From contig OZ024741.1 in the NCBI GenBank assembly GCA_964016885.1, positions 120,838,001 to 120,902,000 on the forward strand: a DNA stretch of 64,000 nucleotides. The letters run 5' to 3'. This document shows, one piece after another, positions 3,361 through 58,675 of this stretch; position 1 is the stretch's first letter, and each line of letters begins with the position of its first letter. The position numbers and the translations under genes are program-made. The notes under the pieces were generated by a model, which did not search any database, was not told the origin of the DNA, and worked only from the letters and a program-made list of their open reading frames with translations. Source of the DNA: Eledone cirrhosa. Its lineage: Eukaryota.

Positions 3361-3406
<46 letters not shown>

Positions 3407-3436
3407 TTAATATAGAAATGGCTTCTACAGGACTAG

Positions 3437-3498
3437 AACTGTTTCATTCGGGAGAAATCATCAGGACTTCCTGATGATTTCTCCCGAATGAAACAGTT
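3437..3498. repeat. 30-bp perfect inverted repeat containing a hammerhead-like core
   Basis: AACTGTTTCATTCGGGAGAAATCATCAGGA-ct-TCCTGATGATTTCTCCCGAATGAAACAGTT, giving CTGATGA...GAAAC on both strands. Confidence 0.75.
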
Positions 3499-3705
3499 AA
3501 ATGTGTGTGTGTGTGTGTAAAATGGAAACAAATAACAGAAATAACAAAACAAATGTCCCAGTACAAGGAAGAAATATATTAGTTTAATGCTTGAAATAGC
3601 AGGAAGCAAGTTGTAACGTTTCGGACACTAGTCCTTCATCAGAAGATAGAGTTAGAAGCAGAAGATAAAACCCCACACCTGTGTAGTCAGTCAGCCATCT
3701 ATATA

Positions 3706-8730: not shown

Positions 8731-8945
8731 TTGAATAAATTTTCAAATTTAGGTACAAAGTGCACAAAATAACTTTACTTGTTTTAAAGTGTGCTGTAAG
8801 TATAAGTTTGGGAACCACTGCTCTAATGCTTCTGTGTGTGTGTGTCTGTGTATGAGTATATATGTGTGTATGCATGTATATATGTATGTCTGTATGTATG
8901 TATGTATGTCTGCATTTATGTATAAATATAGATATAGTAATATAT

Positions 8946-9292
8946 GGAGGCACATGGCTTAGTGGTTAGAGCATTGGCCTTGTAATCGATAGGTTGTGAG
9001 TTCAATTCTCAGACCGGGTGATGTGTTGTTTCCTTAAACAAGACACTTTATTTCACATTGCTTCAGTTTACACAGCTGTAGAAATGAGATGATAGGGACT
9101 GGGGTCCCTATCATTCCACTGCAAAAGTGGTCGTGGAGGTGCCATGGCAAAAAAGCACCCAGCACTCACTGTAAATGAGGTTGGTGTTAGGAAGGGCATC
9201 CAGCTGTAGAAATCAAGCCAGAATCAGTTCCCGTCCCACCCTTGCAAGCAGGGAAAAGCGGACGTAAAATGATGATCATGATGATGATGATA
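8946..9292 (+). mobile_element. CORE-type SINE with RTE-derived 3' tail
   Basis: tRNA head TGGCTTAGTGGTTAGAGC..GAGTTCAATTC, CORE-like block, then a tail matching the RTE-B 3' UTR (GGTGTTAGGAAGGGCATCCAGCTGTAGAAATCAAGCCAG) and (GAT)n. Confidence 0.75.
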
Positions 9293-15464: not shown

Positions 15465-15536
<72 letters not shown>

Positions 15537-15823
15537 AAATAACGAAACAAAATTAAATTTCGTTTCGCTTCTAACTCACTTTTGTATGACTGACGCTTAA
15601 ACAATTAAGTTAAAAGTGTACATCTACATATGTATACTGAAATACTAGTATGCATATAAATACACACATGTATACATATGTACATGTACTGAGTTTTTCA
15701 CTGGACACTTTACTGTGAGTGTCCAGCTAGTCTGTATGTAACCAAACAGACAAACCGGGTTTTAGAGTCATACGGGTTTTCAAGGAAACACATTTCCTCT
15801 ATTCTCCAGAGAGCCAGACAGGA

Positions 15824-15866
15824 ATATTGGACTAGTTTCGATGTTATTACATCTCATCAGCAATAT
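15824..15866 (-). ncRNA. Minimal type I hammerhead ribozyme (mirror copy)
   Basis: Exact reverse complement of 15920-15962 in the left arm of the inverted repeat. Confidence 0.85.
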
Positions 15867-15919
15867 ATACCCATCTTCTGGCTTCTCTAGAGAATCGTAA
15901 AAGCACGGAAGATGGGTAT

Positions 15920-15962
15920 ATATTGCTGATGAGATGTAATAACATCGAAACTAGTCCAATAT
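15920..15962 (+). ncRNA. Minimal type I hammerhead ribozyme
   Basis: Stem I ATATTG/CAATAT, core CTGATGA, stem II GATGT-AATA-ACATC, GAAA, palindromic stem III ACTAGT, GUC cleavage triplet (cut after 15956). Confidence 0.85.
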
Positions 15963-16204
15963 TCCTGTCTGGCTCTCTGGAGAATAGAGGAAATGTGTTT
16001 CCTTGAAAACCCGTATGACTCTAAAACCCGGTTTGTCTGTTTGGTTACATACAGACTAGCTGGACACTCACAGTAAAGTGTCCAGTGAAAAACTCAGTAC
16101 ATGTACATATGTATACATGTGTGTATTTATATGCATACTAGTATTTCAGTATACATATGTAGATGTACACTTTTAACTTAATTATATATATATATAGATA
16201 GATA

Positions 16205-16872
16205 TTAAACAGTAAAGTTGACATGGCTCGCAGAATGTATTCCTGGATTCTCAGAACCTTCTAGTCGAGAGATATCCACACTGTTATCCTTCTCTTCTCC
16301 ACTTTTGTTCGACCCCACCTTGAATACTGTTGTCCACTGTGGTCTCCCCACACGAAACAAAGTATCGTGAAAGTCGAAGCCCCCCCAAAGATTGATCACA
16401 AAAAAGATAGATGGCATGACAGGCCTTGACTATTGGAGTCGATTAGAAAAGCTCAACCTTTATTCTCTCCAACGTCACCATGAGCGCTACATTATCTGCA
16501 TGATGTGGAAAATATTCCATCAGCTTTGCTCAAATGATGTTGGCATCACCTTTAATGTACACCCAAGGCTTGGGCCCCGTGCTATCCGCCCACGACAAAA
16601 TTCTCATTCACATCTCATAACAACAATACGGCACAATTATTTCACCTCAATTGGCCATGCTCTCTTTAACATTACATCAAAACAGAAACACCCCATCAAG
16701 TTCAAGAAGTCTTTGGACAAATTCCTTCAAGAAATCCCGGATAAGACTCTGTAAACAATAACTCTCTGCTTGAGTGGGCCATGGTGCCCAAAACCTGATT
16801 TGTAAGACTTTGCCAGGTGGTGCTATTAAGTTAGACATGGCCTGGGCCAATACTGGCCGAAACCTATCAAAG
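16205..16872 (+). pseudogene. CR1-group LINE 3' fragment (second family)
   Basis: FVRPHLEYCCPLWSP..., then LDYWSRLEKLNLYSLQRHHERY..., FKKSLDKFLQEIPD. Frameshifted. Confidence 0.7.
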
Positions 16873-17573: not shown

Positions 17574-17968
17574 CATCATCATCATCATTTCATTTTACGT
17601 CTGCTTTTCTCTGCTTGCAAGGGTGGGACGGGAACTGATTCTGGCTTGATTTCTACAGCTGGATGCCCTTCCTAACACCAACCTCATTTACAGTGAGTGC
17701 TGGGTGCTTTTTTTTCCGTGGCGCCTACACGTCCACTCTACAGTGTGGGCTGGGTGCTTTTTTGCTGTGGCACCTCCACGTCCACTTTGCAGTGGAATGA
17801 TAGGGACCCCAGTCCCTATCATCTCATTTCTACAGCTGAGTAAACTGGAGCAATGTGAAATAAAGGGTCTTGCTCAAGGAAACAACACATCACCCGATCT
17901 GAGAATCGAACTCACAACCTTTCGATTGCAAGCCAAATGCTCTAACCACTAAGCCATGTGCCTCCACC
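17574..17968 (-). mobile_element. CORE-type SINE with RTE-derived tail
   Basis: Reverse-complement homologue of 8946-9292 with an extra copy of the ~46-48-bp tail unit. Confidence 0.75.
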
Positions 17969-22390: not shown

Positions 22391-22764
22391 TACATATGTA
22401 TGTATTTATTTATATATATATATATACATATGACAAAATGGTAATGTATGTATGTGTATATATAAATTTATATTGTTTAACTGATGAAATCTTGGTCGGC
22501 TGTCACTATTACCAAATGACTCCAGATCACTTACTTCCTGTTGAGGGAGGGGAGGGGTAGGACATTCTACACTCTTCCCTCCCTCCCACATATGGTGGTT
22601 CTTTTTCCTGTTTAGTTTAATCTGGATTCCTCTCATCATCGTCATCATCCTTTCTCTCCCCACCCCTTCCTGTTTCCCTTTCTTTAATTCTATCAGATTG
22701 TTGTTATTATTAATACTACTACTACCACCACCACCACCACCACCATCACCACCATAATAATAAT

Positions 22765-23585
22765 GGTTTCTGATTTAGGCACAAGGCCAACAATTTTGGT
22801 GGAGGGGAAAGTCTATTAAATCAACCTCAGTGTGTTACTGGTATTTTATTTTACTTTTTGAGATCGATAAAATAAAGTACCAGTAACACTCTGGGGTAGG
22901 TTTAATTGACTTTTCTTTCCTCCCCAAATTCCTGGCTTTGTGCCTAAATCAGAAACCATTATTAATAATATAACTAGAGCGGTGGATTGGCAGTATTGGT
23001 AGAGCATCGGATACAATGCTTTGCAGCTTAGAGTTACGACCCTTTACGGTCTGAGTTTAAATCCCGCCGATGTTAACTTTGCCTTTCATCCTTACGGGGT
23101 CGATAAAATAAAGTACCAGTAATGTACTGGAATAATTGCTGGCCTTGTGCCAAAAGTAGAAACAATTATTAATAATATAACTTTGCCTTTCATCCTTACG
23201 GGGTGAATAAAGTAAAGCACTAGTAATTCAGTGGGGTAATTGCTGGCGTTTTGCCTAAAGTAAAAACAATTATTATTAATATAATTGTTTCTACTTTTGG
23301 CACAAGGCCAGCAATTACCCAGTACACTACTGGTACTTTATTTTATCGACCCCGTAAGGATGAAAGGCGAAGTTAACCCCGGCAGGATTTAAACTCAGAA
23401 AAGGGCCATAACTCTATGCTGCAAAGCATATCGCCCGACCCTTTACTGATACTGCCAGTCCAGTTAATATAATGGCAGTGAATTGGGAGAGTTGTTAGTG
23501 TTGGACACCCTGTTTGGCGCCATAGAGTTCGTCTCTTTATATTCTGAGTTCAAATTTTGCTGAGGTTAACTTTGCCTTTCTTCCT
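22765..23585. mobile_element. Cluster of about 6 nested or adjacent copies of the dominant SINE in both orientations
   Basis: Diagnostic blocks at ~22765(-), 22861(+), 22978(+), 23180(+), 23283(-) and 23474(+). Confidence 0.75.
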
Positions 23586-30830: not shown

Positions 30831-31213
30831 AGGCAAGCCAAAGCACATGATGATAAAGTAATAATTGATTTTGGGGAGAAGTATTTGTATAATCTTATGT
30901 TTTCCATCTCTCTCTCTCTTGTTCTTTCTTTCTTTTTTCCTCTCTCCATTCTCTATCTCTTGCTATCTATCTCTTCCTCTTCCTGTTAAGTCATCCCAGT
31001 TTCAAAAGACAACAATGAGGTCATCATCATCTTCATCATCACCACCACCACCACCACAACCGTTTCAAGTCCGTTTTCCCATGTTGACATGGGTTGGATG
31101 GGTTGTCACATTCTGAGACTTGACAGATCGGATAACCACTTGTTGCTTATATGTTTCACTTTGGCATAGTTTCTATAGCTGGATACCTTTCATAATGCCA
31201 ACAACATTATATA

Positions 31214-34200
31214 GTGAACAGGGTGCATTATATTGTGGTACCAGCACTACAACTTTACCGAGTGGACATGGTGCATTTTATTGTGATACCAGCACTACCA
31301 CTTTACCGAGTGGACAGGGTGCATTATATTGTGGTACCAGCACTACAACTTTACCGAGTGGACATGGTGCATTTTATTGTGATACCAGCACTACCACTTT
31401 ACCGAGTGGACAGGGTGCATTATATTGTGGTACCAGCACTACAACTTTACCGAGTGGACATGGTGCATTTTATTGTGATACCAGCACTACCACTTTACCG
31501 AGTGGACAGGGTGCATTATATTGTGGTACCAGCACTACAACTTTACCGAGTGGACATGGTGCATTTTATTGTGATACCAGCACTACCACTTTACCGAGTG
31601 GACAGAGTGCATTATATTGTGGTACCAGCACTACAACTTTACCGAGTGGATATGGTGCATTTTATTGTGATACCAGCACTACCACTTTACCGAGTGGACA
31701 GGGTGCATTATATTGTGATACCAGCACTACAACTTTACCTAGTGGACAGGGTGCATTATATTGTGGCACCAGCACTACAACTTTACCGAGTGGACAGGGT
31801 GCATTATATTGTGGCACCAGCACTACAACTTTACCGAGTGGACATGGTGCATTTTATTGAGATACCAGCACTACCACTTTACCGAGTGGACAGGGTGCAT
31901 TATATTGTGGCACCAGCACTACCACTTTACCGAGTGGACATGGTGCATTTTATTATGACACCAGCAGTACCACTTTACCGAGTGGACATGGTGCATTTTA
32001 TTGTGATACCAGCACTACCACTTTACCGAGTGGACAGGGTGCATTATATTGTGGCACCAGCACTACAACTTTACCGAGTGGACAGGGTGCATTATATTGT
32101 GGTACCAGCACTACAACTTTACCGAGTGGACATGGTGCATTTTATTGTGATACCAGCACTACCACTTTACCGAGTGGACAGGGTGCATTATATTGTGGCA
32201 CCAGCACTACAACTTTACCGAGTGGACAGGGTGCATTATATTGTGGAACCAGCACTACAACTTTACCGAGTGGACATGGTGCATTTTATTATGGCACCAG
32301 CACTACCACTTTACCGAGTGGACATGGTGCATTTTATTGTGATACCAGCACTACCACTTTACCGAGTGGACAGGGTGCATTATATTGTGGCACCAGCACT
32401 ACAACTTTACCTAGTGGACAGGGTGCATTATATTGTGGTACCAGCACTACAACTTTACCGAGTGGACATGGTGCATTTTATTATGACACCAGCACTACCA
32501 CTTTACCGAGTGGACATGCTGCATTTTATTGTGATACCAGCACTACCACTTTACCGAGTGGACAGGGTGCATTATATTGTGGCACCAGCACTACAACTTT
32601 ACCGAGTGGACATGGTGCATTTTATTATGGCACCAGCACTACCACTTTACCGAGTGGACATGGTGCATTTTATTGTGATACCAGCACTACCACTTTACCG
32701 AGTGGACAGGGTGCATTATATTGTGGCACCAGCACTACAACTTTACCGAGTGGGCAGGGTGCATTATATTGTGGCACCAGCACTACAACTTTACCGAGTG
32801 GACATGGTGCATTTTATTGAGATACCAGCACTACCACTTTACCGAGTGGACAGGGTGCATTATATTGTGGCACCAGCACTACAACTTTACCGAGTGTACA
32901 GGGTGCATTATATTGTGGCACCAGCACTACAACTTTACCGAGTGGACATGGTGCATTTTATTATGGCACCAGCACTACCACTTTACCGAGTGGACATGGT
33001 GCATTTTATTATGACACCAGCAGTACCACTTTACCGAGTGGACAGGGTGCATTATATTGTGGCACCAGCACTACAACTTTACCTAGTGGACATGGTGCAT
33101 TTTATTGTGGCACCAGCACTACCACTTTACCGAGTGGACAGGGTGCATTATATTGTGGCACCAGCACTACAACTTTACCTAGTGGACATGGTGCATTTTA
33201 TTGTGGCACCAGCACTACCACTTTACCGAGTGGACAGGGTGCATTATATTGTGGCACCAGCACTACAACTTTACCTAGTGGACATGGTGCATTTTATTGT
33301 GGCACCAGCACTACCACTTTACCGAGTGGACAGGGTGCATTATATTGTGGCACCAGCACTACAACTTTACCTAGTGGACATGGTGCATTTTATTGTGGCA
33401 CCAGCACTACCACTTTACCGAGTGGACAGGGTGCATTATATTGTGGCACCAGCACTACAACTTTACCTAGTGGACATGGTGCATTTTATTGTGGCACCAG
33501 CACTACCACTTTACCGAGTGGACAGGGTGCATTATATTGTGGCACCAGCACTACAACTTTACCTAGTGGACATGGTGCATTTTATTGTGGCACCAGCACT
33601 ACCACTTTACCGAGTGGACATGGTGCATTATATTGTGGCACCAGCACTACAACTTTACCGAGTGGACAGGGTGCATTATATTGTGATACCAGCACTACCA
33701 CTTTACCGAGTGGACAGGGTGCATTATATTGTGATACCAGCACTACCACTTTACCGAGTGGATATGGTGCATTTTATTGTGATACCAGCACTACCACTTT
33801 ACCGTGTGGACAGGGTGCATTATATTGTGATACCAGCACTACCACTTTACCGAGTGGACAGGGTGCATTATATTGTGATACCAGCACTACCACTTTACCG
33901 AGTGGATATGGTGCATTTTATTGTGATACCAGCACTACCACTTTACCGTGTGGACAGGGTGCATTATATTGTGATACCAGCACTACCACTTTACCGAGTG
34001 GACAGGGTGCATTATATTGTGATACCAGCACTACCACTTTACCGAGTGGATATGGTGCATTTTATTGTGATACCAGCACTACCACTTTACCGTGTGGACA
34101 GGGTGCATTATATTGTGATACCAGCACTACCACTTTACCGAGTGGACAGGGTGCATTATATTGTGATACCAGCACTACAACTTTACCGAGTGGATATGGT

Positions 34201-34628
34201 GCATTTTATTGTGATACCAGCACTACCACTTTACCGTGTGGACAGGGTGCATTATATTGTGATACCAGCACTACCACTTTACCGAGTGGACATGGTATAT
34301 TTTATTATGACACCAGCAGTACCACTTTACCGAGTGGATAGGGTACATTTTATTGTGATACCAGCACTACCACTTTACCGAGTGGACATGGTGCATTTTA
34401 TTGTGATACCAGCACTACCACTTTACTGAGTGGATAGGGTACATTTTATTGTGATACCAGCACTACCACTTTACCGAGTGGACATGGTGCATTTTATTGT
34501 GATACCAGCACTACCACTTTACTGAGTGGATAGGGTACATTTTATTGTGACACCAGCACTACCACTTTACCGAGTGGACATGGTGCATTTTATTATGACA
34601 CCAGTACTACCACTTTACTGAGTGGACT
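31214..34628. repeat. 48-bp tandem satellite (~71 units) derived from an RTE 3' UTR unit
   Basis: Unit CTTTACCGAGTGGACAGGGTGCATTATATTGTGGTACCAGCACTACAA. It directly continues an RTE-tail sequence (TTTGGCATAGTTTCTATAGCTGGATACC..AATGCCAAC) at 31160-31213. Confidence 0.92.
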
Positions 34629-35262
34629 GTGTCATCTCCTTTGTGATGTTCCTTATTTTTTAGGTCATTCCTCACAACTTTGTTCCAGTCTTCCTTGGTC
34701 TCCATTTTATTGCAAAAACAAAAATATGCTTTAATACAATATACACAAAAGCACATAATCATCATCATCTCTATCGCTTAACATCCATTTTCCACGCTAG
34801 CATGGGTAAGATGGGCTGAACCTTTGTGAGAAATCAGGCCGGTTTGTTAACTTTTGACATCCTGTAATGATTTAGCAGAAAATATCTAAAGATTGGCTTG
34901 TTAATTCAAAGGGTTGTAGTTTCTTTACTAGTGGACAGATCGTTTTGAAGATATGCAGTATTAGAGTAAAGACTTTTTTATGTTTCAAGAATGTCATTGT
35001 TAATGCGGTTTCATGTGGTACAGGACGTTCAGAGTAAACAGGATTTACTGTACTTTTTCTCGCTTCTAGTAACAAACTAAATAGGATTTGGTTCAGTTTG
35101 GCAGTTCTATTTGTAGTTCACCTTTGCTTGTACCAAGTTTAGAAGGCAACCAAGTGCTCTGTTCTCTATTTGTTAACACTTCCAACTCATCCAAACATCA
35201 GAGTGAAATTTATCATTTTATGTCTGTTTTTCCATGTAAAATTTCTCCAAATGTGACTTTAA

Positions 35263-45660: not shown

Positions 45661-48600
45661 TCATCATCATCATCATCATCAACGTTTAACGTCCGTGTTC
45701 CACGCTTGCATGGGTTTGGACGGGGGTAGTCCCACTTGAGGCAAGAGTGATTGTCTTGCTCGCATAAGACTGTCTGGCAGGTTTTCTACAGTTGGATGCC
45801 CTTCCTAACACCAACCACATTTACAGTGTGGGTCTGGGAGGTTTTTACCGTGTTGCCTACACGGCCACATTACAGCGTGGACTGTGTGTTTTTTTGTCGT
45901 GACACCTACACGATCTCATTTGTTTCGGCCTACACGATCTCATTTGTTTCGGCCTGGATGGCGCGGCACCAACATAACTTTACATAGAACGGGGTGGTGT
46001 GGATGGGGTGGGGGTGGTGGTGGTGGGACGGGGTGTATTTTGTTAGAGATGCCTACTGGCTGGAGTAGGTTTTACTATATATATTTAGGTAAGGCGGGTC
46101 TTCTCTGTTACTGAGTACCGCCAAAGGTCTCGGTCCAGTGTCATTGTCTTGGAGAGGTGTAAGTGTGTGATGTCGGAGTTTATCAGCTCGTCCCAGGTTT
46201 TTCTAGGTCTGCCTATTCCGTGACTACCGTCTATCTTTATTGCCCTGCACTTTGTTATACAGCTATCGACTTTCATGCGCATCACGTGTCCATACCAACA
46301 TAGCCTTCTCTCGAGTAAACAACATCTGATCCCTCTTATCTCTAATTTTTTCCTTAGTTCGTTTATGCTTTGCCGTTCACGTATATTACTGTTACACATC
46401 CAGCGGAGCATGCAAGCTTCGTTCCTCTCTAGTCTGCGTATATCCTCTGCACACAATGCCCAGGTCTCACTGCCATGCAACATTGCTGTTCGTATGCAGG
46501 CATCGTACAACCTGCCTTTCATTTTTAGGGAGAACCCTTTAGCAGCTAATAGTGGTATAAGCTCTCTGAACTTTTTCCAACCAGTTCTGACTCTAGCTAC
46601 AGTACTTTCAGAGCACCCTCCCCCACTGGTGATTATATCGCCCAGGTAACGGAAGCTGTCCACTATTTCTATAGAACCCTCTGCGCAATTGAAAGAGCTA
46701 TTATTTTGTGGGCACTTGCTGCTACTTATTGCACCAGAACACCGGCCACATGTAAAATCTATGTTCTTAGTTAGCTTACCTGTGATCCCACTACATCTTT
46801 TATGCACCCATACTTTGCATTTAGGACATAAAATGGAGTTTCTACCTACGCCTTTCCTACACACCGAGCACGACCATTTCCCAGAAGGGACCGCCACCTT
46901 GTTTTCTTTCCTACAAACTAGAACTTTGGTCTTAGCCAGGTTAATTTTAAGTCCTTTTGACTCTAGGCCGTGCTTCCATGTTTGGAATTTCTTCTCTAGC
47001 TCGGCCATTGATTCCGCTATGAGTGTCAGGTCGTCTGCGTATAGGAGTTCCCATGGGCAGCCTGTCTTGAACTCCTCTGTTATAGCCTGAAGGGCAATAA
47101 TAAATAGTAGGGGGCTGAGAACAGAGCCCTGATGGACGCCAACTTTTACGCTAAACTCTTCACTATATTCGTTGTTAATTCTAACCTTGCTGACTGTTTC
47201 TTTATACATGGCTTGTATAGCCCTCACAAGCCATTCGTCAACGCCTAGTTTTCTAAGAGCCCACCAGATAATGGAGCGGGGGACTCTGTCGAAGGCTTTC
47301 TCCAAGTCGACAAAAGCTAAGTAGAGGGGTTTACCTTTAGCTAGGTACTTCTGCTGTAGTTGTCGTACTATGAAAAGAGCGTCTGTGGTACTTTTGCCTG
47401 ACACAAACCCGAACTGCATTTCATCTAGGTCAATTCTCTCTCTGATTAGTTGCGCTATTACTTTTTCCGTGACCTTCATGACCTGGTCGATTAATTTAAT
47501 GCCTCTATAGTTACTCCTATCTAGGGCGTCTCCTTTACCCTTATAACAGTTAACGATGATGCTGCTATGCCAGTCCTTCGGAACAACCCCATTCTGTACG
47601 ACTTGGTTAACTATGCGGGTGACCATGGTGTGTCCCACCGTGCCAGATGCCTTCAGCATCTCAGCAACTATTTCCGAAGGCCCAGCCGCCTTACCCGTCT
47701 TCATATCCTTGATTGCCTTACTTATTATACTCCCCTCGACTAACACTGCTGGTCCCTCTATTGGGTCGATATGGGGGAGACTGTCTTTCTCCCATTTATT
47801 CTCCTCATTTAGTAGCCTTTCATAGTGACACTTCCAAGCTACCTTCTTATCAGTGTCGGTGATGGCAAGTATGCCATCATCGTTAAGTACACACTTCTCC
47901 CCGACAATATCACGGTTTTCCTTGACGCATTGCCTAGCAATCCTGAACACCTCACGTTTTTGGTCATCGCGTTGTAGAACATGCTTGAACTTTCTTTCCT
48001 CAGCTTCCCTTCTTGCTAAGTACACTTCTCTCCTAGCTTCCCTCCTGGCCACTTGATAGTCTACTCTACTTCCCCCATCCCGCCATACTTTCCAAGCCTG
48101 CTTTTTGGCCTTAATTGACCCCTCCACCTTACTGTTCCACCACCATGTTACTCTGCTCCTGCCTACAGGCCTGCTCCAGCCACAGACTTCGTCTGTCGCC
48201 AACAGCAGGTTTGCTTTCAGAAATTCCCACTGTCCCTCTATATTGTCCGACTCTAAATGTTCTTCCTTACTGTCGAAAGCATCAAGTAATATGCTTTGAA
48301 ATTTATTTCTGGCTGTGGGGTCCTTTAGCTTCCATATTTTTCTCCTGAGGATAGTCCTCTTCTGCTGTCGAGTACGTCTCGTCCTGACTATGAGGTCGCT
48401 AATTATCAGTCTATGTTGGGAGGTGCATTCTTCATGGGGGAGGGATATAGTGTTTACAACAGACACTCTGTCACGTCTTCTGGTAAGGATATAATCTACC
48501 TGGCTTGTGTGTTCCCCGGATCTATAGGTGATCAGGTGATTGTCACGTTTTTTGAAGTTAGTGTTACAGATAGTTAGGTTATTAGCATCACAGAATTCCA

Positions 48601-49392
48601 GGATTCTGGAGCCTTCCTCATTTCTAGTACCAAACCCATAGCCTCCATGGATTTCGTCGTAGCCGTCACAATGTTGTCCAACGTGACCATTTAGGTCGCC
48701 TGCAATAATTATATAGTCACTGTCAGATATTTGGGAAGTAGTTAGCAACAGTGTCTCATAGAATCTGTCTTTTATAGTGCCGGGCAGTCCGGATTGGGGT
48801 GCGTACGCAGATATTACTGTCACCGTAGTTCTATTGAGGACAAGTCGTATTTTAATTATTCTGTCGTTCACTCTATTTACGTCTATTATCTTATCTGCCC
48901 ACTTTTCTGCTACCATGATTCCTACTCCACCCAGCCCATCGTCGTTTCCCACCCAGAAAAGCTTATAACATCGTTTTTTACCCTCAATGAATCTAGCAGA
49001 CCCACCCCTCCACCTGGTCTCTTGAATACAACAAACATCGACCTCCTTACGTTCAAGCATTTCTACAACCTCGTTAGCGCGACCCTTTAGGGTGCCTACA
49101 TTTATGGTACCAACTCTGAAGTTTTGGATTGCGTTTGGAGGGTGGGGGCGGTGGGGGGCGGGGGGAGATGGGGTTATGTTAGCCGTCCGCGGACGAAACA
49201 AAGAGGAGTGCTCGCATTCTCGTCCACGAGGTGAATTTGACTTTAACTTTGGCATTTTCGCTCTGAGCGTCCAGATTTTTCTCTCCCTTCCACTCTCTAG
49301 GATTCCGCAGTCCGTCCATCCATCCATCCATCATATATCGAAGGCAACCGGGCAAGCGATAGTATAGGCCTCTGGCTTATGATTGGTCCGCG
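45661..49392 (-). mobile_element. Full-length or nearly full-length RTE-clade (BovB-like) LINE, subfamily A
   Basis: Single long ORF, ~400-bp 3' UTR and a (GAT)n tail abutting (TA)n. The short 5' leader has (GGAT)n and abuts a truncated SINE at ~49393-49512. Confidence 0.93.
46085..49327 (-). CDS. RTE LINE ORF: AP-type endonuclease + reverse transcriptase with inserted PHD-like C4HC3 zinc finger (1080 aa, uninterrupted)
   Basis: APE motifs TINVGTL, CIQETRW, SAYAPQ, GDLNGH, VDYIL, SQHR. RT motifs QFGF, FVDLEKAFD, GVHQGSVLSP, LYADD, FRYLG. RTE C-terminus WYGHVMR..GRPRKTW. The true start Met is uncertain. Confidence 0.95.
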   Translation of the reverse strand: MDGWTDCGILESGRERKIWTLRAKMPKLKSNSPRGRECEHSSLFRPRTANITPSPPAPHRPHPPNAIQNFRVGTINVGTLKGRANEVVEMLERKEVDVCCIQETRWRGGSARFIEGKKRCYKLFWVGNDDGLGGVGIMVAEKWADKIIDVNRVNDRIIKIRLVLNRTTVTVISAYAPQSGLPGTIKDRFYETLLLTTSQISDSDYIIIAGDLNGHVGQHCDGYDEIHGGYGFGTRNEEGSRILEFCDANNLTICNTNFKKRDNHLITYRSGEHTSQVDYILTRRRDRVSVVNTISLPHEECTSQHRLIISDLIVRTRRTRQQKRTILRRKIWKLKDPTARNKFQSILLDAFDSKEEHLESDNIEGQWEFLKANLLLATDEVCGWSRPVGRSRVTWWWNSKVEGSIKAKKQAWKVWRDGGSRVDYQVARREARREVYLARREAEERKFKHVLQRDDQKREVFRIARQCVKENRDIVGEKCVLNDDGILAITDTDKKVAWKCHYERLLNEENKWEKDSLPHIDPIEGPAVLVEGSIISKAIKDMKTGKAAGPSEIVAEMLKASGTVGHTMVTRIVNQVVQNGVVPKDWHSSIIVNCYKGKGDALDRSNYRGIKLIDQVMKVTEKVIAQLIRERIDLDEMQFGFVSGKSTTDALFIVRQLQQKYLAKGKPLYLAFVDLEKAFDRVPRSIIWWALRKLGVDEWLVRAIQAMYKETVSKVRINNEYSEEFSVKVGVHQGSVLSPLLFIIALQAITEEFKTGCPWELLYADDLTLIAESMAELEKKFQTWKHGLESKGLKINLAKTKVLVCRKENKVAVPSGKWSCSVCRKGVGRNSILCPKCKVWVHKRCSGITGKLTKNIDFTCGRCSGAISSSKCPQNNSSFNCAEGSIEIVDSFRYLGDIITSGGGCSESTVARVRTGWKKFRELIPLLAAKGFSLKMKGRLYDACIRTAMLHGSETWALCAEDIRRLERNEACMLRWMCNSNIRERQSINELRKKLEIRGIRCCLLERRLCWYGHVMRMKVDSCITKCRAIKIDGSHGIGRPRKTWDELINSDITHLHLSKTMTLDRDLWRYSVTEKTRLT

Positions 49393-51535: not shown

Positions 51536-54500
51536 TCATCATCATCACCGTTTTACGTCCGTTCTTCCACGCTAGCATGGGTTAGACGGGTTGTCCTGTT
51601 GTGTGCAGTGTCTGGTCGGCTGACCATGCCTTGCTCATACAGGAACTGATCTGGCTTGATTTCTACAGCTGGATGCCCTTCCTAACACCAACCTCATTTA
51701 CAGTGAGTGCTGGGTGCTTTTTCGTGGCGCCTACACGTCCACTTTACAGTGTGGGCTGGGTGCTTTTTTGCCCTGACACCTCCACGACCACCTTGCGGTG
51801 GGGGGTGTGGGGGCATATTGTTTATATGCTTCAGCATGTACCCATGGGAGGTCGGGTACTCTGTATTACTGCGTGACGCCAGAAGTCACGGTCATGTGTC
51901 ATTGTCTTTGAGAGGTGTAGTTGGGTAAGGTCGGCTTTTATCACCTCATCCCAGGTCATCTTGGGTTTCCCCACTCCGCGGTTTCCATCAACTTCTAGTG
52001 CTCTGCACCTTTTTATGCAGCTGTCATCCTTCATACGCATCACATGTCCATACCAGCGCAACCGCCTCTCCTGCACACAGCATTTGATTCCTCTTATGCT
52101 CAGTCTCTCTCTCAATTCATTTATGCTTTGTCGTTCACGTATATTACTGTTACACATCCATCGGAGCATGCAGGCTTCGTTTCTCTCTAATCTATGTAAG
52201 TCTTCCACCTTCAGCGCCTAGGTCTCACTACCATGCAACATCGCTGTTCGGATACACGCATCATACAGTCTGCCTTTCATTCTGAGGGAGAAGCCTTTTG
52301 CAGCTAGCAGTGGTAGTAGTTCCCCAAACTTCTTCCATCCCGTTCTTACCCTAGTTATTGTACTTTCTGAACACCCACCTCCGTTGCTAATTCGGTCACC
52401 TAGGTAGCAGAAGCTGTCTACTGTTTCTACAGGGCCCTCCCAGAGATTGGTGGTACTTGTTTCCTGTGGCTGTTTGCTGCTTGCTGTTTCAGCACAGCTG
52501 CTGCATGTGAATCCTACATTCTTAATTAAGCTTCCTGAGATCCCGCTACATCTCTTGTGTACCCATTGTTTGCATTTGGGGCAGAGAATGGAGTTCCTAC
52601 CTACACCTTTTCTACATACTGAGCAAGGCCATTTCCCTGAGGGGATCTGGGTTCTGTTTTCTCGTCTACTTACAAGGACCTTAGTCTTTGTCATGTTGAC
52701 TTTGAGACCCTTTCTTTCTAGTCCCTGCTTCCAGGTTTGGAATTTATTCTCTAGTTCTACTATAGATTCAGCTATGAGTGCGAGGTCATCAGCATACAGG
52801 AGTTCCCATGGGCATCCGGTCTTAAACTCCTCCGTTATTGCCTGCAGGACTATGATGAACAGGAGAGGGCTAAGAACAGAGCCCTGGTGGACCCCAACCT
52901 GTACGCTAAATTCCTCGCTATACTCATTGCTAATCCTAACTTTGCTGACTGCTCCCCTATACATGGCTTGTACCGCTTTCACAAGCCATTCATCTACACC
53001 TAGTTTTCTAAGAGCCCACCAGATTACCGCACGTGGAACTCTGTCAAAGGCTTTCTCAAGGTCGACAAATGCCAAGTAGAGTGGCTTACTTTTAGCTAGG
53101 TACTTTTCCTGTAATTGCCTCACAAGGAAGAGGGCATCAGTGGTGCCTCTTCCTGGTACAAACCCAAATTGCATCTCGTCTATTTTCACCCGGTCCCTAA
53201 TCAGCTGTGCTATAACTCTTTCTGTTACTTTCATGACCTGGTCCATCAACTTTATTCCTCTATAGTTTCCTCTATCTAGTGCATCGCCTTTACCTTTGTA
53301 GCAGTTGACAATGATGCTACTGCACCAATCTTTTGGTATGGCCCCTTCTAGTATTACCTGGTTAACGATACGTGTGGTTATAGTGTGACCTACAGACCCA
53401 GATGCCTTCAGTATCTCGGCAGCTCTCCCCGATGGACCGGTTGCCTTCCCCATCTTCATATCTCTGATTGCCTTACTTACTACGCTGCCGCTGACTTGTA
53501 CTGCTGGTCCCTCTATAGGGTCTACTTGGGGTAGGGTCTCTTCTTCCCATGCATTCTCCTCATTTAGTAATCTATCATAATGACTCTTCCATGCATCTTT
53601 CTTCTCAGCACTTGTGAGGGCAAGCTCACCTTTATCATTCCGGATACACTTCTCTCCAATGACATCACAACTATCTCTGACACACTGCCTCGCAATCTTG
53701 AATACCTCCTGTTTCTGGTCCTCACGTTGTAAAACATGCTTGAATTTTCTATCCTCTGCTTCCCTCCTAGCTAAGTATACTTGTCGCCTAGCTTCCCTCT
53801 TGGTCTCTATGTAATGTACCCTGCTCCCCCCCGTTCTTCCATTCTTTCCATGCCTGTCTCTTGGCCTTGACTGCTTCATCTACCTTATTGTTCCACCACC
53901 AAGTCACTCTCCTCCTGCTTGAGGTCTTACTCCAGCCACAGACCTCGTCCGTCGCCTCTAGTAAATTATTTTTTAGGAACTCCCAGTTCTCTTCTACATT
54001 AAATGTCTCTATCTGTTCTTCTTTACTGTCATAGGCGTTGAGTAAAATATCTTTAAATCTGTTACTGGTTGAGGGGACTTTCAGCTTCCAGATCTTTCTT
54101 CTCCAGGTTGGCCTCTGTTTCAGGGCTCGTCTAGTTCTGACCGTGAGGTCGCTGACAACTAAGCTATGTTGGGATGTACATTCCTCACTAGGGAAGGCTT
54201 TTGTGTTTACGACTGTCCATCTGTCACGTCCTCTGATGAGGATAAAATCTAACTGAGTAGAGTGCTCCCCTGATCTATAGGTGATCAGGTGGTTGTCGGG
54301 TTTTTTAAAGTTTATGTTACATATCGACATGTCATTGGCGTTGCAGAATTCTAGAAGTCTGAATCCTTCCTCATTCCTTGTGCCAACTCCATGGCCTCCA
54401 TGGACTCTATTGAAGCCGTCGCTGTGTTTACCTACGTGTCCGTTAAAATCTCTTGCGATGATTAGGAAGTCATTGTCGTTTGTTAGAGCAGTAGTGTGCA

Positions 54501-55434
54501 TTAGGGACTCGTAAAACCTATCCTTAAGTTCGTCTGGCAGCCCCGATTGGGGTGTGTAAGCTGATATTATTGTGGTAATTGTCTTATTCAGGACTAATCT
54601 GAGTTTAATGATTCTTGCATTTACCCTGTACACTGAGATTACTTTATCTATCCACTTGTCAGCTAATAGTATACCTACACCACCCATCCCATCGTCATTT
54701 CCCACCCAGTAAAATTTGTAGCACTGACTTTTTCCTATAAGGACTCTAGCAGACTCTCCTCTCCATCTAGTCTCTTGCACACAGCATACATCAACTTCCT
54801 TTCGCTCTAGCATTTCTACAATTTCTCCTGCTCTTCCTTCCATTGAGCCTACATTGATGGTACCAACTCGGAGTTTTGGGCATTTGTCGACACTCGTAGG
54901 GGAGGGTTTCTGGGTTGGCGCTTCACGTGGGTGCTTGGTAGCTCGCAGATTCATATTTCATCTATTGATTCAGAGTTGCTCAAATGTATTCTCAGCTCAT
55001 CCATCCATAACGGTGGGAAAATTGAGGGCTAGAAGAACAGCGGTGGTGGGGTAATGGCAGGGTGTGTTGGGCTGCGCCAGGGGAGGAGAGAGTTAGTTAG
55101 GTAGTAGCAGCAGCAGCGGCGGAAATGGCATGCTGAGGTTTGATTGGTCGAATAGGCTATGGTGGTGTGTGGGTCGGGTGGGGGGAAATTGTGAGGTAGG
55201 CACTGAGGGTTGCATGGTAAATAACCGAGAGATACGATAGAATTAGAATACCGCATGGTAAATATCCGAAGTTAAAACAGCAGTAATATTAACAATAGTA
55301 ACGTCGTAGGAACTAAGAAAATTTATCAATAATACAGCAGAAAAACAGTAGTAATATCGTCATAAGACTAACTAAGATACCTCGAAGAATTTTATGGATG
55401 GGTGGCCGGAACGAAATGAAATCAACTCTACTGA
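51536..55434 (-). mobile_element. Near-full-length RTE LINE, subfamily B
   Basis: ~480-bp 5' leader starting TCAGT, ORF split in three pieces, 3' UTR and (GAT)n tail. Flanked by (TA)n on both sides. Confidence 0.9.
51831..54954 (-). pseudogene. RTE-B APE-RT ORF with one frameshift and one nonsense codon
   Basis: ORFs 53788-54954, 52218-53879 and 51831-52208 join colinearly with the 1080-aa ORF. Frameshift at the C7 run 53826-53832. TAG at 52218-52220 where the 7.08-kb copy has TGG. Confidence 0.9.
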
Positions 55435-57791: not shown

Positions 57792-58675
57792 CAGGATGCA
57801 GACGATATTTGTTCGCAAGATTACTGTCTAGGAAAAAATAACACAGTAGTTTTATTTTTTAAGATATATTTATCAAACTTGGGTCAGTTTGTCTTCATGA
57901 CTTGTTCTTTTGATCTCACTCGATAAACCCGCCATTGGCTTTGATGACGGCCTCAAGGCGGCCTCGGAACCGGCTACAGGCCTTCGTCACTGTCCCCCGA
58001 CTTAGGCCCCTAAAGGCACTTGTGATCCTGGCCTTCAGATCGTCTTTCGTATTGCAGCTAGATCTGTTGGTGTCTCGTTCCACTGTGCCTCACACAAAGA
58101 AGTCGAGGGGGTTGCAGTCAGGCGAGCTGGGAGGCCAGATGTCAGGTGAAGTGTGGTCGACAAAGTTCTCTGACAGCCAGGCTTGGGTCTTTCGGCTGGT
58201 ATGGCAGGGCGCTGAGTCTTGCTGCCACACGTACGGCCTACCTGCAGCTACCTGGTTGATCCAGGGCTTTACTACCTCGCTCAGAACGCGGATGTAGCCA
58301 TCGATGTTCTGCTTGAGGCCCTCATGGAAGAAGTGAGGTGGAATGACGTCACCTTGACTGCTGACTACACCTAAGACCAATATTGTCGCTGGAAACTTTG
58401 TCTGCATGACTCTGGGCACGTCTTTGGATGAGACAGCGAGCCACCTGGGAGTTGATCTTCTGGTCTTATTTGTCCTACTGGCGCGGATTCCAAGAAGAAC
58501 TCTGTGTCTCTTCCACAAATTTGGAGGTTCAAAATTATTCATAATCAATTATTCTGAAAATAAATAATGGAAATATAGTCACTGTTTTTATGAAGACAAG
58601 AGTGACAACGGAAGTAAAAAAAATGTGCATAAAATTAGCAGTTGAAAATTGCGAATAAATATCGTCCGCACCCTG
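57792..58675 (-). mobile_element. Internally deleted Tc1/mariner element, DD37D (maT) family
   Basis: TA|CAGGATGCAGACGATATTTGTTCGCAA ... TTGCGAATAAATATCGTCCGCACCCTG|TA. The transposase remnant WQQDSAPCH..WPPSSPDCNPLD has 37 residues between the second and third Asp. The N-terminal HTH and first Asp are missing. Confidence 0.88.

What the first reader, a model, noticed from the sequence alone, without database searches (positions are those of the whole stretch)
15603..16183. 276-bp inverted repeat carrying two outward-facing hammerhead ribozymes
Seen: two 276-bp arms with no visible mismatch and a 29-bp spacer, inside (TA)n. Each arm holds a complete minimal type I hammerhead (6-bp stem I, CUGAUGA, 5-bp stem II, GAAA, palindromic ACUAGU stem III, GUC site). 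Established: minimal hammerheads with palindromic stem III and inverted pseudo-LTRs are hallmarks of Penelope-like elements, and such ribozymes usually cleave as dimers. Inference: this is a very recent non-coding Penelope-like or retrozyme-like insertion. Read-through in either direction makes the antisense arm first, so the ribozyme would be locked in a 276-bp dsRNA (a candidate siRNA or ADAR substrate). Transcripts starting near the spacer would expose an active ribozyme.
Basis: partly seen in the sequence, partly recalled or inferred. Interest (0 to 1): 0.85.

Follow-up and report, generated by a model that had tools for sequence, protein, structure and literature searches.

The report
Head-to-head Penelope-type hammerhead retroelement stump
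A perfect 276-base mirror repeat carrying two hammerhead-ribozyme motifs sits inside a TA microsatellite; it is likely the stump of a Penelope-type retroelement insertion, a known layout, and its ribozymes are predicted to be mostly silent at this site.

Summary
The arms match at 276 of 276 bases around a 29-nt spacer, and each carries an intact type I hammerhead core facing outward. The element is larger and asymmetric. The left copy (minus strand, 15535-15907) includes the spacer, which pairs into an extended helix I, and a 68-nt 3' extension. The right copy (15908-16183) is shorter at both ends. Removing 15535-16183 restores a continuous (TA)n tract. Head-to-head 5'-truncated copies, a tail at one end and (TA)n targets are the published signature of Penelope-like (PLE) insertions, and opposite-strand hammerhead pairs 100-700 bp apart are already described in Schistosoma. 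No RT/GIY-YIG partner, family copy or read support for the inversion was obtained, so membership rests on architecture. The open point is whether the donor is a PLE terminal repeat or a non-coding retrozyme unit moved by PLE machinery. Verdict: new member of a known kind.

The parts
15535..15907 (-). Longer (left) copy, 373 nt: spacer + arm + 3' extension; non-coding and strongly self-paired as RNA
   Evidence: MFE -128.1, z -8.2, 0 of 100 dinucleotide shuffles as low; opposite strand -104.6; longest stop-free stretch 41 codons in three sense frames
15535..15602 (-). 68-nt 3' extension present on the left copy only (candidate PLE 'tail'); holds a 13-bp hairpin
   Evidence: Lies between (TA)n and the arm and has no mirror; folds -13.9 on the ribozyme strand vs -5.8 on the other, 53 of 1000 shuffles as low; assignment as tail is inference
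15603..15878 (-). Left arm of the inverted repeat
   Evidence: 276 of 276 complementary to 15908-16183
15816..15876 (-). Left type I hammerhead; predicted cut 3' of C at 15830
   Evidence: Mirror of the right motif; Rfam HH9 33.6 bits at 15807-15879; descriptor hit
15879..15907 (-). 29-nt spacer, likely the native 5' continuation of the left copy; 15877-15895 pairs with 15801-15818 in an 18-bp extension of helix I
   Evidence: Duplex with the arm -25.7 vs shuffled mean -16.8, 8 of 1000 as low; the other strand gives -17.4
15908..16183 (+). Right arm: shorter copy, starting 18 nt upstream of the ribozyme core and lacking the extension
15910..15970 (+). Right type I hammerhead of canonical proportions with palindromic ACUAGU helix III; predicted cut after 15956
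   Evidence: Aligns to HH9 model positions 1-77, 32.7 bits, E 3.5e-7; anatomy
15468..15533 (.). Left part of the (TA)n target microsatellite
   Evidence: removing 15535-16183 gives a continuous TA tract
16183..16196 (.). Right part of the (TA)n target microsatellite

Best explanation
The locus is two head-to-head copies of one hammerhead-bearing non-coding unit inside a (TA)n tract, likely left by a single insertion made by Penelope-like (PLE) reverse transcriptase/endonuclease machinery. Shown: the perfect arms, the asymmetry (29 extra nt at the 5' end and 68 extra nt at the 3' end of the left copy), the TA target and the ribozyme motifs. Inferred mechanism: the GIY-YIG endonuclease nicks the TA tract, and reverse transcription starts near the RNA's 3' end. 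It starts either at two sites 68 nt apart from the two target strands, or once, followed by fold-back copying of the cDNA. Synthesis stops just upstream of the ribozyme, and the two cDNA ends are joined, giving mirror arms with a tail on one side. The hammerhead would have served the donor RNA, cutting tandem precursors as a dimer through ACUAGU. Here it is predicted to be a passenger: a transcript carries only one sense copy, and read-through locks it in a 276-bp hairpin.
For: The architecture matches published PLE insertions point by point. An inverted 5'-truncated copy, a tail at one end and (TA)n bias are described in PMC8557442 (passages). Head-to-head is the commonest arrangement, and one inverted pLTR there is 37 bp shorter than its partners (PMC3846280 passages). 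Dual hammerheads on opposite strands 100-700 bp apart occur in Schistosoma mansoni (PMC4209133). A purified PLE protein cuts and extends both target strands and starts RT at two sites that bound the tail (PMC11167929). The spacer belongs to the left copy's RNA fold. The ribozyme strand folds better than its complement, with 12 vs 5 G-U pairs. The empty site is a clean TA tract. The double-hammerhead dimer (-32.0) lies within 3 kcal/mol of the best dimer fold (-34.8). A second, 30-bp head-to-head repeat with a hammerhead-like core lies between microsatellites at 3437-3498.
Against: No link to a PLE ORF. None of 58 of the window's 97 long frames scanned gave a GIY-YIG hit, and no whole genome is held. 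No other copy of the unit was found: window, viral contigs 0 hits, metagenome contigs 5 pattern hits with no similarity beyond the core, earlier findings 0. So there is no covariation test. The extension is 68 nt, not the 30-40 nt described. The ribozyme has canonical, retrozyme-like proportions, whereas most metazoan PLE ribozymes are minimal. Extra pairing at the centre, expected from fold-back priming, is not significant: 382 of 5000 shuffles by pair count, 344-526 of 2000 by energy. A TSD cannot be read inside (TA)n. The inversion has not been checked against reads.
Confidence: 0.75

Rival explanations
1. A retrozyme or satellite unit that was inverted without PLE machinery, by twin priming from a LINE enzyme or by DNA-level fold-back repair.
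For: Canonical-type ribozyme; a 373-nt self-paired non-coding unit, within the 170-400 nt retrozyme range; LINEs with long ORFs lie in the window.
Against: No tandem copies and no poly(A) end in the sequence; the one-sided extension and (TA)n target fit the PLE pattern.
Confidence: 0.1
2. Fold-back artefact of sequencing or assembly: one real copy was mirrored in a chimeric read.
For: The arms are 100% identical, and no read-level check of the junctions was obtained.
Against: The mirror stops 68 nt short of the left TA tract and then continues into a different flank, a TA run and a LINE 3' piece. A chimera would need two switches, one exactly where a PLE tail would begin.
Confidence: 0.07
3. 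A MITE-like DNA transposon with 276-bp terminal inverted repeats and a TA target duplication; the hammerheads were captured by chance.
For: Long perfect inverted ends in a TA context; a DDE transposase-like fragment lies elsewhere in the window (weak hit, E 0.004).
Against: It does not explain the one-sided 68-nt extension or the strand-specific pairing of the spacer with the arm.
Confidence: 0.04
4. A host-selected hairpin RNA locus (endo-siRNA source or ADAR substrate) kept perfect by selection or gene conversion.
For: Read-through would give a hairpin of about -514 kcal/mol.
Against: No evidence of transcription or conservation; perfect arms are expected of any young head-to-head insertion.
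Confidence: 0.04

Closest known systems
Endonuclease-bearing Penelope-like element insertions with inverted pLTR and tail (Penelope/Poseidon, Neptune, Naiad; PMC8557442, PMC3846280, PMC11167929)
   Same: Head-to-head inverted 5'-truncated copy, one copy shorter at the junction, a 3' extension at one end only, (TA)n target, type I hammerhead in the repeat.
   Different: No ORF in this stump; the extension is 68 nt rather than 30-40; the ribozyme has canonical rather than minimal proportions.
Opposite-strand pairs of minimal hammerheads in Schistosoma mansoni, 100-700 bp apart (PMC4209133)
   Same: Two hammerheads on opposite strands close together, ascribed there to truncated PLEs.
   Different: The cores here are about 65 nt apart, and the motif is not the min-HHR type.
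Metazoan non-LTR retrozymes (coral, mussel 350-390 bp, axolotl; PMC7229834; bioRxiv 10.64898/2026.07.22.740005)
   Same: Canonical-proportioned type I hammerhead with a weak palindromic helix III; non-coding, under 50% GC, 373-nt strongly self-paired unit.
   Different: Not in head-to-tail tandem here; circular RNA not shown; 'inverted' occurs 0 times in the main text of PMC7229834.
Rfam Hammerhead_HH9 (RF02275)
   Same: Same scaffold over model positions 1-77: 6-bp helix I with internal loop, 4-bp helix II with 6-nt loop.
   Different: 32.7 bits vs gathering score 52; helix III lacks the 5-nt loop; not a member.

Membership tests
Penelope-like element (EN+) | RT plus GIY-YIG ORF linked to the repeat | not testable with these tools
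   No ORF in the stump; no GIY-YIG hit in 58 of 97 long frames scanned; no genome held. A 5'-truncated stump is not expected to carry the ORF.
Penelope-like element (EN+) | Inverted 5'-truncated copy adjoining head to head | tested here: met
Penelope-like element (EN+) | 30-40 bp tail at one end only | tested here: inconclusive
   A one-sided extension is present but is 68 nt; its link to the element is weakly supported (53 of 1000 shuffles; pairing with the arm not significant).
Penelope-like element (EN+) | Type I hammerhead in the terminal repeat, in the element's sense | tested here: met
Penelope-like element (EN+) | AT-rich or (TA)n target | tested here: met
Minimal hammerhead of metazoan PLEs (min-HHR, PMC4209133) | Unpaired base after CUGANGA, short helix I (4-5 bp), long helix II, little or no helix III loop | tested here: not met
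   CUGAUGA is followed directly by G10.1; helix I is 6 bp plus a looped extension; helix II is 4-5 bp against the consensus
Canonical metazoan type I hammerhead | Intact core, helix I 6 bp, helix II 4 bp, helix III 1-2 bp with a 2-4 nt palindromic loop | tested here: met
   definition
Canonical metazoan type I hammerhead | Loop 1-loop 2 tertiary contacts and self-cleavage | not testable with these tools
   Loop sizes and several loop bases match the HH9 consensus; contacts and activity need experiment.
Non-LTR retrozyme | Head-to-tail tandem repeats of 150-450 bp, each with a hammerhead | tested here: not met
   No direct repeat of the unit in the window; other loci of the genome could not be examined.
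Non-LTR retrozyme | Non-coding, under 50% GC, highly self-paired unit of 170-400 nt | tested here: met
   373 nt, 35% GC, z -8.2. 15 of 336 background windows fold as low; most lie in palindromes or simple repeats.
Non-LTR retrozyme | Expressed as circular RNA | not testable with these tools
   No RNA reads could be examined.

The most novel reading that the evidence does not exclude
The donor is not an autonomous PLE's terminal repeat but a non-coding retrozyme unit (canonical hammerhead, about 370 nt, rod-like fold), and it has landed with the PLE-specific signature of head-to-head inversion, one-sided tail and (TA)n target. That would be direct structural evidence that PLE enzymes mobilise animal retrozymes, a link so far argued from co-occurrence and pLTR similarity. 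It may also be a cephalopod retrozyme family, if the host is what its repeats suggest.
Probability: 0.25. Interest if true: 0.55.

Novelty: new member of a known kind. Interest (0 to 1): 0.3.

Why it matters
As a PLE stump it is ordinary: such inverted ends are the usual product of PLE integration. Its value is as a clean young specimen that records both 3' ends and the central junction of one event, which can separate twin priming from fold-back priming once sister copies are aligned. It would matter more if the family proves to be a tandem, circular-RNA-forming retrozyme, because who mobilises animal retrozymes is still open (PMC7229834 calls PLEs a strong candidate; the 2026 preprint says the mechanism is unresolved).

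Tried and rejected
No whole genome was available, and no read-level test of the inversion or of expression was obtained; both stay open.

Run index: 20 of 24 listed runs hold some words of 15560-16400. Three runs of one sample hold 0.48-0.55, above the 0.23-0.33 expected from the right flank alone, so part of the element probably exists in those assemblies. The smaller shares are no evidence.

Pattern scans: viral contigs 0; metagenome contigs 5 loci, of which 2 (L001, L003) pass the hammerhead descriptor and none resembles the arm beyond the core. Earlier-finding look-ups by sequence and place were empty. Motifs of this element were absent from the supplementary file of PMC8557442 (line breaks could hide matches).

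Rejected: pairing of the extension with the arm (919 of 1000 shuffles as good); fold-back microhomology at the centre as evidence (not significant); a coding role (longest open stretch 41 codons); Rfam miRNA matches (all below gathering score, generic to a long hairpin); the right flank as part of the element (46% identical over 94% of the query to a 1007-aa RT/endonuclease protein, i.e. a LINE 3' piece).

Full report
Observation. Positions 15603-15878 and 15908-16183 are reverse complements at all 276 positions, with a 29-nt spacer. Each arm has a type I hammerhead reading away from the centre: helix I ATATTG/CAATAT, CUGAUGA, helix II, GAA, ACUAGU, C17. A structural descriptor finds these two and nothing else in the 64 kb. 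Shuffled windows average 0.025 hits, and 0 of 200 give one this strong. Rfam gives Hammerhead_HH9 at 33 bits on both arms, significant but below the gathering score of 52; at gathering level the window yields only one tRNA-like match.

The element is larger than reported and asymmetric. TA runs lie at 15468-15533 and 16183-16196, and deleting 15535-16183 leaves a continuous TA tract. The insertion therefore includes 68 nt on the left that have no mirror. On the minus strand the spacer pairs with sequence 3' of the ribozyme, extending helix I by 18 bp. That duplex is -25.7 kcal/mol against a shuffled mean of -16.8 (8 of 1000 as low), while the plus-strand spacer gives -17.4. So the spacer is most simply the native 5' continuation of the left copy. 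The whole left copy (373 nt, 35% GC) folds at -128.1 (z -8.2), against -104.6 for its complement, with 12 vs 5 G-U pairs. AT-rich palindromic words inflate this; the 218-nt ribozyme-proximal part alone has z -5.5. 15 of 336 background windows fold as low, most of them in palindromes or simple repeats. The extension's own hairpin is only borderline (53 of 1000), and its apparent pairing with the arm is not significant. The right flank is a separate LINE 3' piece.

What it is. This anatomy is the published form of PLE insertions. PMC8557442 (passages) describes an inverted 5'-truncated copy next to the 5' end, a 30-40 bp tail often at one end only, and microsatellite targets; its supplement lists (TA)n preference for two Octopus Naiad families. 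PMC3846280 (passages) calls head-to-head the most frequent arrangement and describes an inverted pLTR 37 bp shorter than its partners. PMC4209133 (parts 1-2 of 4; supplement file 2 in part; file 1 not searchable) reports hammerhead pairs on opposite strands 100-700 bp apart. PMC11167929 (parts 1-2 of 4) shows a PLE protein cutting and extending both target strands, with two RT start sites bounding the tail, and finds ribozyme cleavage dispensable for insertion in vitro. The window has a second, 30-bp head-to-head repeat with a hammerhead-like core between microsatellites (3437-3498). What is missing is the link to an ORF: no genome is held, 58 of 97 long frames scanned show no GIY-YIG domain, and no sister copy was found.

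The ribozyme. It lacks the unpaired base after CUGANGA of the PLE min-HHR consensus. It aligns with the full HH9 scaffold, including the internal loop of helix I and a 6-nt loop II, which fits the canonical metazoan type as defined. That type is typical of non-LTR retrozymes (PMC7229834: passages, part 2 of 6 and section 14; its supplement was unreadable and may list relevant invertebrate families), though some PLEs also carry canonical or small-palindrome forms. Helix III has zero pairing probability in the monomer model, partly because the model forbids 2-nt loops, and helix I forms in only 22-33% of the ensemble. A double-hammerhead dimer scores -32.0 against -34.8 for the best dimer fold, so dimer activity is plausible but not shown. 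At this locus a transcript carries one sense copy only, and in read-through the 8 ribozyme positions checked pair with the mirror arm at P>0.998. Cleavage would need a transcript starting at the centre and a partner in trans.

Mechanism. Shown: arms, asymmetry, target, motifs. Inferred: PLE enzymes nicked the TA tract and copied the RNA's 3' end twice, by twin priming at two start sites or by cDNA fold-back, stopping 18 and 47 nt upstream of the core. The data do not separate the two routes; extra pairing at the centre is not significant. Zero differences in 276 bp bound the age to under 1.5-3 Myr at the octopus rate quoted in PMC13282606 (passages), if the host is an octopus and barring gene conversion or polishing. 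The cephalopod guess is recalled from the look of the SINEs and microsatellites and comes from no call.

Rivals. Inversion of a retrozyme unit without PLE enzymes (0.10), fold-back artefact (0.07), MITE (0.04), host-selected hairpin (0.04). The artefact reading could not be tested on reads. It is weakened because the mirror stops 68 nt short of the left TA tract and continues into a different flank.

Novelty. The layout is known, so this is a new member of a known kind, filed on architecture with the ORF criterion untested; it is not filed as a retrozyme because the tandem criterion is not met here. The bolder reading is a retrozyme unit bearing the PLE integration signature (0.25). The 2026 preprint (parts 1 and 3 of 5 and passages; supplements not seen) argues the PLE-retrozyme link from co-occurrence and pLTR similarity, mainly in vertebrates. 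Searches for 'hammerhead ribozyme' with 'octopus' (5 papers, 4 listed) or 'cephalopod' (4 papers, 2 listed) showed no title or abstract start describing such a family; subscription journals are not covered. PMC6155905 and PMC7761336 were seen as passages; Lunse et al. 2017 only as a title in a reference list. Three earlier AI notes describe similar PLE stumps in other genomes; they are unchecked leads, not support.

Noticed in passing
window 3405-3498: Second head-to-head repeat: 30-bp perfect arms (3437-3466 / 3469-3498), each with a CUGAUGA...GAAAC core, between TA/TG microsatellites; the left copy runs about 25-30 nt further. Degenerate helices; fails the descriptor.
   Followed up: partly
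window 3618-3642 (-): Core matching the published min-HHR consensus (CUGAUGA, unpaired A, 4-bp helix II, GAAA CG UU) but with no helix I pairing; likely a decayed PLE end between microsatellites.
   Followed up: partly
window 46088-49330 (-) and 52221-54957 (-): Two related LINEs (74% identical) with endonuclease and RT domains and a PHD-finger match just after the RT domain; the first is a stop-free frame of 1081 codons.
   Followed up: partly
window 22755-22967 and 23178-23375: Two roughly 200-bp imperfect palindromes (81% and 84%) made of dispersed repeat copies.
   Followed up: no
window 31105-34700 (approximate end): Tandem array with a 48-bp period, about 70 copies, 90-98% alike.
   Followed up: no
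L001 481-512 (-), L003 292-327 (+): Unrelated metagenome contigs with type I hammerheads that share the ACUAGU helix III.
   Followed up: partly
window 17899-17956 (-): tRNA-like match (34 bits) in a dispersed repeat with a copy near 8891-9289; probably a SINE head.
   Followed up: no
window 58093-58548 (-): Fragment with a weak DDE_3 transposase match (E 0.004).
   Followed up: no
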